From: Naegleria gruberi
Taxonomy: Eukaryota
DNA length: 2,862 nucleotides
Strand: one strand, 5' to 3'
Assembly: GCA_000004985.1 (NCBI GenBank)
Contig: GG739243.1
A program made the position numbers and the translations under genes. The notes under the pieces were generated by a model. That model worked only from the letters and a program-made list of their open reading frames with translations, was not told the DNA's origin and searched no databases. Positions 1 through 2,862 of the stretch are shown in pieces (the first letter of the stretch is position 1; each line of letters opens with the position of its first letter).

Positions 1-3
1 TCA

Positions 4-915
4 TCAGCACAAACCATCAGGTCTGTTAATTGAACAAATGCCAACGAATCCTCTGTTGATTTCTTTTTGATTTTCTCTGTGTTGAGTCAAGAGCTTTTCA
101 TTATTGAAACAAATTCTCAACCCATTACCGAATCTCAATACTCTTTCGTGGAGTTGAGCATATGTAAACCAACGATACTTGTTCTCATATTGATCCTTGG
201 CAATTTTTCTTCTATAACCCAAACAAGGTCTATCAGCATAGGCCAATAGAGCATTATTGAGAGTTTCAGCAACGTAGGAACCTTTGGTGAGCCAATGCAA
301 ATGAGCAGGATGTTTCGAATTTTTCACCAAGAAAACATCATGAATAGGAATTGGTTTACGCTGGGCAATAGTTTCTCTTGCTTTAATCTTCCACTCCTCC
401 ACACTCTTCTTCTCCCATTCCTCCATTGAAATATTAAAATCCTCAAATTTATCACTCTCCAAACAGTGCATCTTTGGTACATTGGTTTTGAGTTTTGCCT
501 TTGAAATCATACAAACATCCTCATGTCTATCTCTATAGTATCCTTCATAAATATAAAATCTGACACCAATCTTCTTCTGATACTCTTCTCCATTCTCACT
601 CAGAGCCACTTGCAAATCGAGTGGCACAGAAGGATCAAATTTCTGTGGTTCAAATCGAAGAGCAGCCAAGAAGGCAGTCGGAACAAAACCAATATGCTTC
701 TCATTACGTGGAATATCATGATCATAGACTCGACATCCATTTCGATGAACATCACGAATATCCACTTTTTGAACCAATGCCCAACCCAAACCAGTTTCAT
801 ACTCACGAAGGAGAATCATCAGATCACCAACTTTGAGTGATATCAAACCTTCAGAATTATTTGGCTCCACTTCATAGTCAGAAACCGAGATGGCATATTT
901 AGGGAATTTGAACAT
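4..915 (-). CDS. Long-chain fatty-acid-CoA ligase (ACSL/FACS, AMP-binding superfamily), N-terminal 303 aa. Probably exon 1, with an intron donor near position 15, or a truncated pseudogene. Carries a ~170-aa N-terminal extension with an SH3-like segment.
   Basis: Continuous 303-codon ORF from an ATG at 915..913 in an A-rich context (TTAAAAAAAAATG). An in-frame TGA lies 10 codons upstream, so this is the first ATG. The C-terminal part reads ETLNNALLAYADRPCLGYRRK...YRWFTYAQLHERVLRFGNGL...GFVGICSINRPDG, matching the conserved ACSL N-terminal motifs (TLYExF...PCLGxR...YxWxSYxQV...GIFxxNRPEW). Coding-like GC and codon bias contrast with the flanks. All other ORFs inside it are shorter overlapping or antisense-frame ORFs with no recognisable similarity. 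The TGA at 6..4 cuts the AMP-binding domain short, so the gene must continue beyond the window via an intron; GGTTTGT on the minus strand at 15..9 is a possible donor. Confidence 0.8.
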   Translation of the reverse strand: MFKFPKYAISVSDYEVEPNNSEGLISLKVGDLMILLREYETGLGWALVQKVDIRDVHRNGCRVYDHDIPRNEKHIGFVPTAFLAALRFEPQKFDPSVPLDLQVALSENGEEYQKKIGVRFYIYEGYYRDRHEDVCMISKAKLKTNVPKMHCLESDKFEDFNISMEEWEKKSVEEWKIKARETIAQRKPIPIHDVFLVKNSKHPAHLHWLTKGSYVAETLNNALLAYADRPCLGYRRKIAKDQYENKYRWFTYAQLHERVLRFGNGLRICFNNEKLLTQHRENQKEINRGFVGICSINRPDGLC

Positions 916-1738: not shown

Positions 1739-1849
1739 CAAAGGCTTGTTCAAAAAATTTGAAATAATTTGATGAACATGAGCATTAAATTGGATTCCTC
1801 TATTAATTTCTAATCAAGAGGTTATCTTATATTGTTGTGGTGATGAAAT
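1739..1849 (+). repeat. Copy A of a diverged intergenic direct repeat. Ends in the conserved core GGTTATCTTATATTGTTGTGGTGATGAAAT.
   Basis: Aligns to 2103..2239 at roughly 75-80% identity, with two indels in copy B. The shared blocks are caaaggcttgtt / aatttgwtgaacatgagyattaaat / gattcct / ggttatcttayattgttgtggtgatgaaat. Weaker similarity extends ~50-100 nt further upstream in both copies (attgatcaatttctgatttggtgataatta vs attgaatcaatcagttaatatggtgaaaaata; tggagactgtgaaagaacc vs tggcgaaagtgagagaact). Confidence 0.7.
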
Positions 1850-1895: not shown

Positions 1896-2102
1896 GATTG
1901 TATTTGTTCAATTATTGGTGTTCATCATTCATTCCGTTCTAACAGAGTGAGTGGACTTGTTGCCAATTTAAAATTATATCAAATCACAAATCCCTTTCCA
2001 AATCAAATCATTCGATTCTATTTTGGCGAAAGTGAGAGAACTTACGAATCTATTGAATCAATCAGTTAATATGGTGAAAAATAAACTCTGATGTTGAAGA
2101 AA

Positions 2103-2239
2103 CAAGGCTTGTTAAAAAAATATTTTGAATTGAATTTTCTCAATAATTTGTTGAACATGAGTATTAAATCTTGGTCTCATTAGATTCCTTAATTCATTTC
2201 CAATCGAGTGGTTATCTTACATTGTTGTGGTGATGAAAT
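2103..2239 (+). repeat. Copy B of the same diverged direct repeat. The 30-nt core is identical to copy A except for one Y position.
   Basis: See copy A. Copy starts are ~364 nt apart and ends ~390 nt apart. The core ggttatcttacattgttgtggtgatgaaat lies at 2210..2239. Confidence 0.7.
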
Positions 2240-2339: not shown

Positions 2340-2690
2340 GATTAATTTTATTTATATTGTATTATACTATTTGTCTAAATAAAATCTATTTAAAATACTG
2401 TATTTTAATTTTTTTTAAAATTAATAAAATTTGAATAGTGCCAGAACTACACTTCTTACTTCGGCAACATCAATAAACAGCAATACAACATTGATTTAAT
2501 TAAAATGGATTTTATTTAACATAATGATAAATACTATTAAAATATATAAATTAATATTATATACATTGATTTAATTTTGTTAAAAATTAAATCCAAAATA
2601 TTATTTTTAGAAGAATTATTATTAAATTGTAATTCTTTTTTAATTCTACTTTCAAATAATTGTTCTAATTGATTAATTCTATTTTCTGTA
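2340..2690. other. Extreme AT-rich tract (~90% A+T) immediately upstream of the EGF-like exon. It is either an intron or the core promoter / 5' flank of the plus-strand gene.
   Basis: Composition read directly: long runs of a/t with only scattered g/c. It ends in a pyrimidine-rich ...ttttctgtag. The GC content differs sharply from 1400-2300 (~30-33%) and from the coding segments. Confidence 0.5.
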
Positions 2691-2695
2691 GATAA

Positions 2696-2862
2696 TTCCA
2701 TGGTTACAATGGGTTTTATGGAGATAGTTGCGAGTCCACTATTGTCATTCCATTGAATTATACTTGTTTTGGTGTGAATTTCAATGATTCCAGTGTTTGC
2801 TCTGGATTTGGAAACTGTATTTCCACTGATAATTGTACTTGTAGTGTTGGTTACTCTGGAAG
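2696..2862 (+). CDS. Partial internal or second exon encoding an EGF-like (tenascin-type) cysteine-rich extracellular repeat. Runs off the window end; the 5' boundary is uncertain (candidate acceptor AGs at 2722-2723 or 2726-2727).
   Basis: The frame with codons at 2702, 2705 and so on translates to GYNGFYGDSCESTIVIPLNYTCFGVNFNDSSVCSGFGNCISTDNCTCSVGYSG. That is 7 Cys in 53 codons with CxCxxGYxG and CSGFGNC spacing typical of EGF/tenascin-like repeats; TGT/TGC codons are rare by chance in AT-rich DNA. An in-frame TAA at 2693-2695 and no in-frame ATG show it cannot be a first exon starting here. It follows a ~350-nt extreme AT tract ending ...ttttctgtag. Confidence 0.55.

What the first reader, a model, noticed from the sequence alone, without database searches (positions are those of the whole stretch)
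406..915. A ~170-aa SH3-like extension fused to the N-terminus of a long-chain acyl-CoA synthetase
Before the recognisable ACSL core (which begins around ...VFLVKNSKHPAHLHWLTKGSYVAETLNNALLAYADRPCLG) the protein has a ~170-residue extension. Residues ~6-85 (nt ~660-900) read YAISVSDYEVEPNNSEGLISLKVGDLMILLREYETGLGWALVQ...KHIGFVPTAFLAAL. This matches the SH3 beta-strand pattern (ALYDY / acidic RT loop / KGD-hydrophobic / xWxA / G-IP-NYV) with an unusual ~23-aa insertion (KVDIRDVHRNGCRVYDHDIPRNE) in the distal-loop position. Canonical ACSLs have a transmembrane or short N-terminus. An SH3-type targeting module on a fatty-acid-activating enzyme would be an unusual architecture and could tether lipid activation to a proline-motif partner, for example on endosomal or cytoskeletal machinery.
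Basis: partly seen in the sequence, partly recalled or inferred. Interest (0 to 1): 0.55.

Follow-up and report, generated by a model that had tools for sequence, protein, structure and literature searches.

The report
SH3 domain on carboxylic-acid-reductase-like enzyme
A Naegleria gruberi gene starts with a real but divergent SH3 protein-binding domain joined to the front of an enzyme that, judged from its full-length relatives, is a three-part carboxylic/fatty-acid reductase rather than a plain acyl-CoA synthetase, a domain combination found so far only in this group of amoebae.

Summary
Window 7..915(-) is one uninterrupted 303-codon ORF, the N. gruberi 'predicted protein' XP_002668177. About 190 residues precede the adenylate-forming core.

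Residues ~5-88 are a divergent canonical SH3 domain with a conserved 22-23 aa insertion in the distal loop.
- Pfam gives only sub-threshold SH3 hits.
- A profile of three homologues hits almost only SH3 domains in the PDB: E=0.0095 intact, 1.2e-5 with the insertion excised.

The start codon (MFxF) and the extension are conserved in Willaertia magna, in a metagenomic relative and, in part, in a N. gruberi paralogue. The 5'-UTR alternative is therefore rejected.

The enzyme call needs correcting. The full-length homologues are about 1500 aa with adenylation, carrier and thioester-reductase domains. Their best match is bacterial carboxylic acid reductase (PDB 5msp, E=1e-80). They are not stand-alone ACSLs.

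The window gene runs off the scaffold end, and its annotated stop looks like a read-end artefact.

Residues ~89-190 are a conserved segment of unknown fold.

A targeting role for the SH3 is inferred, not shown. The finding is a moderately interesting lineage-restricted domain architecture.

The parts
1..915 (-). 5' part of the coding sequence. It is one continuous reading frame with no intron and runs off the scaffold end.
   Evidence: ORF 4..915(-). It is identical to N. gruberi XP_002668177. Homologues continue for about 1200 more residues.
913..915 (-). Start codon (ATG), preceded by an A-run. An in-frame TGA lies 30 nt upstream at 943-945.
   Evidence: The same MFxF start is seen in Willaertia and in metagenome contig L001.
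652..903 (-). Divergent canonical SH3 domain, aa ~5-88. Predicted strands are 6-10, ~24-27, 32-38, 45-51, 75-79 and 83-86.
700..768 (-). Conserved 22-23 aa insertion in the SH3 distal loop, aa 50-72 (KVDIRDVHRNGCRVYDHDIPRNE). It includes the family-invariant G60, Y64 and D65, and also C61 and R62 in three of four sequences.
   Evidence: Alignments. HMM alignments to SH3 split around it. It is modelled with low confidence, with a short helix at 53-58.
346..651 (-). Conserved middle segment of unknown fold, aa ~89-190. Invariant residues are P90, P95, G117, E124, R128, D129, C135, T144, H150, C151, E153, N161, K169 and W175.
   Evidence: Four-sequence alignment. No Pfam hit. AF2 of aa 1-195 failed, pLDDT 41.6. 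The only match is a non-significant PDB hit to BtrH_N-domain proteins, E=0.05.
16..345 (-). N-terminal part of the adenylate-forming (AMP-binding) domain, aa 191-300.
   Evidence: 56-62% identity to the equivalent part of three A-T-R homologues. Pfam AMP-binding E=0.0023, below the cut-off.
1..15 (-). Degenerate scaffold end. The frame slips twice, with WFV in frame 2 and AD in frame 1, where homologues read D-WFV-AD-W. The annotated stop TGA at 4-6 is probably an artefact.
   Evidence: Three-frame translation and comparison with L001 nucleotides. Alignment.

Best explanation
The window holds the promoter-proximal 300 codons of a heterolobosean multidomain enzyme. The domain order is: divergent SH3 (aa ~5-88, with a conserved 22-23 aa distal-loop insertion); a conserved ~100-aa segment of unknown fold; an ACSL/FadD9-type adenylation domain; and then, off the scaffold and inferred from homologues, a phosphopantetheine carrier domain and an NAD(P)H thioester-reductase domain. 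The likely chemistry is that of carboxylic acid reductases. The A domain adenylates a carboxylic acid, probably a fatty acid. The acyl group is loaded onto the carrier's phosphopantetheine arm. The R domain then releases it as an aldehyde. The SH3 domain most likely acts as a protein-protein docking module that positions or regulates the enzyme. What is shown: the ORF, the conserved start, the SH3 homology and fold, and the A-T-R architecture of the homologues. What is inferred: that the window gene continues into T and R domains, the substrate class, and the docking role of the SH3.
For: A single 303-codon ORF joins the SH3, the middle segment and the start of the A domain, so no splicing or gene-model fusion is needed.

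HMMER against 1.84 billion representatives with aa 1-195 finds only three true relatives besides the window protein itself:
- Willaertia magna KAL9644932, 1496 aa, aligned 1-195 to 1-201, E=2e-30.
- A metagenomic exon, E=1e-18.
- N. gruberi paralogue XP_002670534, E=1e-11.

Pfam on the homologues gives AMP-binding, weak PP-binding and NAD_binding_4.

Metagenome contig L001 carries the SH3 exon, a 46-nt intron, and then one 1431-codon ORF with A, T and R domains.

The Willaertia protein matches carboxylic acid reductase structures: 5msp at E=1e-80 over residues 539-1412, and 5msc at 1e-79. Thermus long-chain acyl-CoA synthetase 1ult scores only 1.8e-5.

NCBIfam gives carboxyl_red 414 bits, Thioester-redct 213.6 bits (cut-off 213.35) and long-chain-fatty-acid-CoA ligase 98.7 bits.

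Groove residues Y14, W45, P79 and F82 are conserved across the family.
Against: - The window protein alone gives no Pfam SH3 hit.
- All SH3 Pfam scores in the homologues are below the gathering cut-offs.
- The AF2 model has only moderate confidence and rests on a 4-sequence alignment.
- The second aromatic of the ALYDY motif is not conserved (V/P at position 16), so classical PxxP binding is uncertain.
- The T and R domains are not in the window, and the rest of the gene was not located.
- The last 16 nt carry frame slips, which could mean a pseudogene rather than read-end error.
- The carboxyl_red score is far below the equivalog cut-off of 1300, so the substrate and even the product (aldehyde or alcohol) are open.
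- No expression data could be consulted.
Confidence: 0.72

Rival explanations
1. The protein is a stand-alone long-chain acyl-CoA synthetase with an SH3 targeting module, and it makes acyl-CoA.
For: The A-domain start (ADRPCLGYRR..WFTYAQLHERV) resembles ACSL N-termini, and AMP-binding is the only Pfam hit. NCBIfam long-chain-fatty-acid-CoA ligase models also hit the homologue, at 98.7 bits. The window ends before any T or R domain could be seen.
Against: All three relatives that share this N-terminus and extend far enough carry NAD_binding_4, and two also show a weak PP-binding hit at a DSL serine. CAR structures and the CAR model score much higher than any acyl-CoA synthetase.
Confidence: 0.1
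2. The window copy is a dead fragment. It would be a truncated or frameshifted pseudogene copy of the family on an orphan 2.9-kb scaffold, so the architecture exists in relatives but this locus makes no protein.
For: There are two frame slips and a TGA TGA in the last 16 nt. The scaffold is tiny and the remainder of the gene was not found. The neighbouring EGF-like fragment at 2699-2862 also lacks a start.
Against: 300 codons are intact with no stop. The invariant positions of the family are kept, with 56-62% identity in the A domain. The slips are all single-base losses in doublets at the very end of a scaffold, which is typical of low-quality read ends.
Confidence: 0.15
3. The N-terminal barrel is an SH3-fold structural or regulatory element that acts within the protein rather than as a peptide-recruiting SH3. 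It might clamp the A domain, dock the carrier domain, or mediate dimerisation together with the conserved middle segment.
For: The most conserved residues lie in the atypical insertion (G60, C61, R62, Y64, D65) and not in the RT loop. One ALYDY aromatic is lost. The barrel always occurs together with the conserved 100-aa segment.
Against: The sequence matches are specifically to canonical peptide-binding SH3 domains such as CD2AP, Nbp2, CIN85 and Hck. W45, P79, F82 and Y14 of the binding groove are retained.
Confidence: 0.3
4. The extension is untranslated leader, and the true start is a downstream Met (M137, M149 or M165).
For: None found, apart from the existence of in-frame Met codons.
Against: Protein-level conservation runs from residue 1, with an MFxF start in three genes from different organisms. 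There is 37-50% identity over aa 1-195 and there are invariant residues throughout. A conserved intron position lies inside the SH3 coding region in two relatives.
Confidence: 0.02

Closest known systems
Canonical eukaryotic SH3 domains (Pfam SH3_1/SH3_2/SH3_9, e.g. CD2AP, Nbp2, Pex13, Sla1, Hck)
   Different: Pfam gathering scores are not reached. A conserved 22-23 aa insertion sits in the distal loop, which is normally a tight hairpin. The second ALYDY aromatic is absent. The domain sits at the N-terminus of a metabolic multidomain enzyme rather than a signalling or cytoskeletal protein.
Bacterial carboxylic acid reductases (CAR; Segniliparus, Nocardia and Mycobacterium enzymes, PDB 5msp/5msc/5mso; NCBIfam NF041592)
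   Same: The full-length homologues have the same A-T-R order. They share a FadD9/ACSL-type adenylation domain, a DSL serine carrier motif, and a GxTGFxG Rossmann plus YxxSK reductase.
   Different: The score of 414 bits is far below the equivalog cut-off of 1300. The proteins are eukaryotic (Heterolobosea). They carry about 190 extra N-terminal residues (SH3 plus unknown segment) and a large insertion in the A domain. The window itself shows only the first ~110 residues of the A domain.
Long-chain acyl-CoA synthetases (ACSL/FadD)
   Same: They belong to the same adenylate-forming superfamily, and the N-terminal sequence motifs around DRPCLG and WFTY.QL are similar.
   Different: ACSLs end after the A domain and use free CoA. 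The relatives of this gene continue into carrier and reductase domains.
FUT8 alpha-1,6-fucosyltransferase
   Different: The catalytic domain is unrelated, the SH3 is C-terminal, and the enzyme sits in the Golgi lumen. This is an analogy only.

Membership tests
SH3 domain (Pfam clan SH3; SH3_1 PF00018, SH3_2 PF07653, SH3_9 PF14604) | Score at or above the Pfam gathering cut-off | tested here: not met
   The window protein gives no hit at E<=10. With the insertion excised, SH3_2 scores 17.5 bits against a cut-off of 21.8. Homologues score 12-19 bits, all below the cut-offs.
SH3 domain (Pfam clan SH3; SH3_1 PF00018, SH3_2 PF07653, SH3_9 PF14604) | Significant profile-level sequence similarity to bona fide SH3 domains | tested here: met
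   With the 3-sequence family profile against PDB sequences, 22 of the 28 hits at E<=10 are SH3 domains, including all of the top 13; the best is E=0.0095. With the insertion excised there are 152 hits, the best being CD2AP SH3 at E=1.2e-5 and Nbp2 at 8.6e-5.
SH3 domain (Pfam clan SH3; SH3_1 PF00018, SH3_2 PF07653, SH3_9 PF14604) | Five-stranded SH3 beta-barrel fold | tested here: met
SH3 domain (Pfam clan SH3; SH3_1 PF00018, SH3_2 PF07653, SH3_9 PF14604) | Conserved peptide-binding groove (two ALYDY aromatics, Trp, Pro, Tyr of the 3-10 helix) | tested here: inconclusive
   Y14, W45, P79 and F82 are conserved in the family. The second ALYDY aromatic is V/P.
SH3 domain (Pfam clan SH3; SH3_1 PF00018, SH3_2 PF07653, SH3_9 PF14604) | Binding of proline-rich or other peptide ligands | not testable with these tools
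   This needs binding assays.
Carboxylic acid reductase (A-T-R; NCBIfam NF041592) | ACSL/FadD9-type adenylation domain | tested here: inconclusive
   The window holds only aa 191-300 of it. Pfam AMP-binding gives E=0.0023, 17.2 bits, against a cut-off of 29.9. There are no PDB sequence hits for this piece. It is 56-62% identical to homologues whose A domains match CAR at E=1e-79.
Carboxylic acid reductase (A-T-R; NCBIfam NF041592) | Phosphopantetheine carrier domain with a DSL serine | not testable with these tools
   It lies beyond the scaffold end. It is present in the homologues (GSIDSLGAVRLS, GVVDSLSSVRLS, GIVDSLSAVRLS), with weak PP-binding hits.
Carboxylic acid reductase (A-T-R; NCBIfam NF041592) | C-terminal thioester reductase (NAD_binding_4 / TIGR01746) | not testable with these tools
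   It lies beyond the scaffold end. In the homologues NAD_binding_4 scores E=1.7e-52 and 5e-52, and TIGR01746 scores 213.6 bits against a cut-off of 213.35.
Carboxylic acid reductase (A-T-R; NCBIfam NF041592) | Equivalog-level score to the CAR model | tested here: not met
   The Willaertia homologue scores 414 bits against a cut-off of 1300. It is CAR-like in architecture and not a demonstrated CAR equivalog.
Long-chain acyl-CoA synthetase (stand-alone ACSL) | Protein ends after the adenylation domain, with no carrier or reductase domain | tested here: not met
   This was tested on the homologues that share the N-terminus, and all continue into T and R domains. It cannot be tested on the window gene itself.

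The most novel reading that the evidence does not exclude
Heterolobosean amoebae would have a dedicated, spatially targeted fatty-acid reductase. In this reading the SH3 with its conserved insertion and the Cys/His-conserved middle segment form a new N-terminal module. That module would recruit an A-T-R enzyme to a specific membrane or cytoskeletal partner, or add a new activity or metal site. Aldehyde or alcohol lipid synthesis would then be coupled to a cellular location, which has not been described for any carboxylic acid reductase.
Probability: 0.15. Interest if true: 0.6.

Novelty: new variant of a known kind. Interest (0 to 1): 0.4.

Why it matters
Carboxylic acid reductases are known mainly from actinobacteria and fungi as soluble enzymes, and they are of interest as biocatalysts. 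A eukaryotic, lineage-restricted version with a built-in SH3 docking domain would suggest that some protists position aldehyde or alcohol formation at defined sites. This is relevant because Naegleria relies heavily on lipid metabolism (my own background knowledge, not checked here). It also adds to the few cases of SH3 domains fused to metabolic enzymes. On the practical side, it corrects two database records: XP_002668177 is a truncated fragment with an artefactual stop, and XP_002670534 probably has a mis-predicted N-terminus.

Tried and rejected
- The word-indexed protein search returned only the query itself, three times, so it said nothing about orthologues. The exhaustive HMMER search was what found the relatives.
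- Exact-sequence contig look-ups failed for the window protein and for the N. gruberi paralogue. The rest of the gene and the paralogue's true N-terminus could therefore not be inspected.
- The scan of JGI metagenome contigs found no further relatives.
- AF2 of aa 1-195 gave pLDDT 41.6 and was not used for fold search. The middle segment therefore remains unassigned.
- A hit of aa 98-181 to 'BtrH N-terminal domain' proteins (E=0.05) was considered as a possible papain-like acyltransferase remnant. It was rejected as unsupported because there is no Pfam hit, the coverage is only partial, and no upstream catalytic Cys is present.
- PDB sequence searches with the whole window protein and with the A-domain-start profile found nothing.
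- I first read the window's end as an intron donor (GAT G|GTTTGT). I dropped this in favour of read-end frame slips, because frames 2 and 1 spell WFV and AD exactly as in the homologues.
- The afdb50 fold library was unavailable.
- Rfam found nothing in the window.
- Literature searches found no paper that describes an SH3 joined to an adenylation or thioester-reductase protein, or a Naegleria CAR.

Full report
**What is in the window**

The 2862-bp window is an entire small scaffold of Naegleria gruberi. Its only long ORF is 4..915 on the minus strand, 303 aa. It is identical to the database entry XP_002668177 / NAEGRDRAFT_54917, 'predicted protein', whose longest contig is 2862 bp. The next longest ORF in any frame is 105 aa. 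The first ATG (913-915) follows an A-run, and an in-frame TGA lies 30 nt upstream.

**Is the extension translated and conserved?**

An exhaustive HMMER search of 1.84 billion representative proteins with aa 1-195 found, besides the window protein itself, three true relatives:
- A 1496-aa hypothetical protein of Willaertia magna. It aligns 1-195 to 1-201 at 38% identity, E=2e-30.
- A 119-aa product called on an ENA metagenome contig (51% identity, E=1e-18).
- A 1202-aa N. gruberi paralogue, XP_002670534 (E=1e-11, aligned from aa 45 on).

Two further hits (E about 1e-4 to 8e-4) are repetitive, unrelated proteins.

The window protein, the Willaertia protein and the metagenome protein all begin M-F-x-F. 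In the metagenome contig L001 and in Willaertia locus L002 a short phase-1 intron interrupts the codon after GF(I/V)PSG at the same position. The window copy has no intron there. Invariant residues run through the whole 195 aa. This excludes the 5'-UTR or downstream-Met alternative. The SH3-like part, the middle part and the start of the enzyme lie in one uninterrupted ORF in the window, so the fusion is not a gene-model artefact.

**Is it an SH3?**

More sensitive tests agree with one another.
- The metagenome homologue gives SH3_2, SH3_9 and SH3_1 hits at E = 9e-4 to 2e-2. The Willaertia homologue gives SH3_1 at 0.013. The window sequence with aa 51-72 removed gives SH3_2 at 0.0034. All are below the gathering cut-offs.
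- A profile of the three N-termini (aa 1-91) searched against all PDB sequences returns mostly SH3 domains, 22 of the 28 hits at E<=10 including the whole top 13. The best is Nbp2 at E=0.0095. The alignments break into two pieces, 8-49 and 73-87, that flank the proposed insertion.
- With the insertion excised, the same profile gives 152 hits. The 60 listed are nearly all SH3 domains: CD2AP E=1.2e-5, Nbp2 8.6e-5, then CIN85, Hck, Pex13, spectrin and others.
- An AlphaFold2 model of aa 1-94, built on a 4-sequence alignment, has pLDDT 69 and pTM 0.61. Its strands are at 6-10, 32-38, 45-51, 75-79 and 83-86, and aa 52-74 form a poorly defined excursion.

Of the two ALYDY aromatics, one (Y14) is conserved and the other is V/P.

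The insertion is not a sloppy loop. G60, Y64 and D65 are invariant in all four sequences, and C61 and R62 in three.

I conclude that this is a divergent member of the canonical SH3 superfamily with a conserved distal-loop insertion. Ligand binding is untested.

**What enzyme is it attached to?**

The window shows only about 110 residues of the adenylate-forming domain. These give a weak AMP-binding hit (E=0.0023) and no PDB sequence hit on their own. They are 56-62% identical to the corresponding part of the three relatives.

Those relatives are not stand-alone acyl-CoA synthetases.
- The Willaertia protein and the 1431-codon ORF that follows the SH3 exon in L001 both contain AMP-binding and NAD_binding_4 ('male sterility'/thioester reductase) domains, with E about 1e-52 for the latter. 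The L001 ORF and the N. gruberi paralogue also give a weak PP-binding hit.
- All three have a carrier-type DSL serine motif, and a GxTGFIG Rossmann motif follows it. The two complete proteins also have YPQSK.
- The Willaertia protein's best solved relatives are bacterial carboxylic acid reductases: 5msp at E=1.1e-80 in one stretch covering 539-1412, 5msc at 1.2e-79, and 5mso. A bona fide long-chain acyl-CoA synthetase (1ult) scores 1.8e-5.
- NCBIfam ranks carboxyl_red first (414 bits; equivalog cut-off 1300, so not met). Thioester-redct just reaches its cut-off (213.6 against 213.35). Long-chain-fatty-acid-CoA ligase scores 98.7 bits.

The family is therefore CAR-like in architecture (A-T-R) and has an ACSL/FadD9-type adenylation domain. 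That the window gene itself continues into T and R domains is inferred from homology and is not shown.

**The end of the ORF**

The annotated protein ends ...NRPDGLC*. The homologues read NR(P/V/A)D-(W/F)FV-(A/S)D-W at this point. In the last 16 nt of the scaffold, frame 2 reads WFV and frame 1 reads AD. Two or three single-base losses in doublets would restore D-WFV-AD-W. The most economical reading is low-quality sequence at the scaffold end, so the TGA at 4-6 is not a genuine stop. A real frameshifted pseudogene cannot be excluded (about 15%).

**The middle segment (aa ~89-190)**

This segment is conserved in all four sequences, with invariant C135, H150, C151, E153, R128 and D129 among others. 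It has no Pfam match. Its only PDB matches are non-significant: BtrH_N-domain proteins at E=0.05 and CapZ-alpha at 0.26. AF2 of aa 1-195 failed with pLDDT 41.6. Its fold and role are unknown. It is absent from bacterial CARs, whose N-termini correspond to about aa 200 onward of these proteins.

**How it most likely works**

*Shown:* an SH3-type barrel and a conserved segment are translated as the N-terminus of an adenylate-forming enzyme, and the relatives have the A-T-R architecture.

*Inferred from the established CAR mechanism:* ATP-dependent adenylation of a carboxylic acid, probably a fatty acid; transfer to the phosphopantetheine arm; and NADPH-dependent reductive release as an aldehyde.

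*Inferred from SH3 biology:* the barrel docks the enzyme to a partner peptide, for localisation or regulation. An intramolecular role is a serious rival (about 0.3), because the most conserved residues lie in the atypical insertion.

**Distribution and novelty**

Across 1.84 billion representative proteins and the JGI metagenome contigs, the N-terminal module was found only in Naegleria, Willaertia and one metagenomic relative that has small spliceosomal introns. Full-text searches found no paper describing an SH3 joined to an adenylation or thioester-reductase protein, or a Naegleria CAR. Absence from that library is not proof of absence. I rate it a new variant of known kinds: a lineage-restricted domain architecture that is moderately interesting (0.4). 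It does not open a long-standing question.

Noticed in passing
window 1-18 (-): The annotated stop (TGA at 4-6) follows two frame slips. Frames 2 and 1 spell WFV and AD where the homologues read D-WFV-AD-W. This looks like single-base losses in doublets at the scaffold end, so the 303-aa database protein has an artefactual C-terminus (GLC*).
   Followed up: yes
L001 866-911 and L002 5242-5296: The metagenome and Willaertia genes share a short phase-1 intron (46 and about 55 nt) at the same codon, inside the SH3 coding region after GF(I/V)PSG. The window gene lacks it, which implies intron loss or gain within the family.
   Followed up: partly
P0004 (N. gruberi XP_002670534), aa 1-30: The paralogue's gene model starts with an unrelated His/Ser-rich peptide and aligns only from the SH3 distal-loop insertion onward. 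It also ends inside the reductase domain. Both ends of the model are probably mis-predicted. The locus could not be fetched.
   Followed up: no
window 1740-1849 and 2100-2239 (+): There is an imperfect direct repeat of about 110-135 nt, 87-93% identical in its ungapped blocks (about 76% over the wider 258-column alignment, with two indels), and 380-390 nt start to start. It ends in GTTATCTTA(T/C)ATTGTTGTGGTGATGAAAT. It has no Rfam match and no protein-family hit, and its nature is unknown.
   Followed up: partly
window 2699-2862 (+): A Cys-rich reading frame (FHGYNGFYGDSCE...CSGFGNCISTDNCTCSVGYSG) gives a weak EGF_2 hit (E=0.001). It runs off the right end of the scaffold. It is preceded directly by an in-frame TAA, with no ATG and no obvious splice acceptor, so it may be an exon fragment or a pseudogene.
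   Followed up: partly
window 2350-2650: This is an extremely AT-rich stretch (GC 16-21%) with several short inverted and direct AT-rich repeats. It lies between the repeat region and the EGF-like fragment.
   Followed up: no
window 346-651 (-), aa 98-181: There is a borderline profile match (E=0.05) of the conserved middle segment to PDB 'Butirosin biosynthesis protein H N-terminal domain' proteins (9qvo and others). In that alignment H150 of the window protein aligns with a His of the target. It has no Pfam support and is probably chance, but it is worth re-testing with a good structural model.
   Followed up: partly
P0002 aa ~330-540; L001 ORF aa ~250-430: The adenylation domains of the full-length homologues carry a long insertion, on the order of 150 aa, between the N-terminal AMP-binding motifs and the TSGSTSTEPKG motif. 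The core motif itself has one extra residue relative to the usual TSGSTGxPKG (the usual form is recalled from memory).
   Followed up: no
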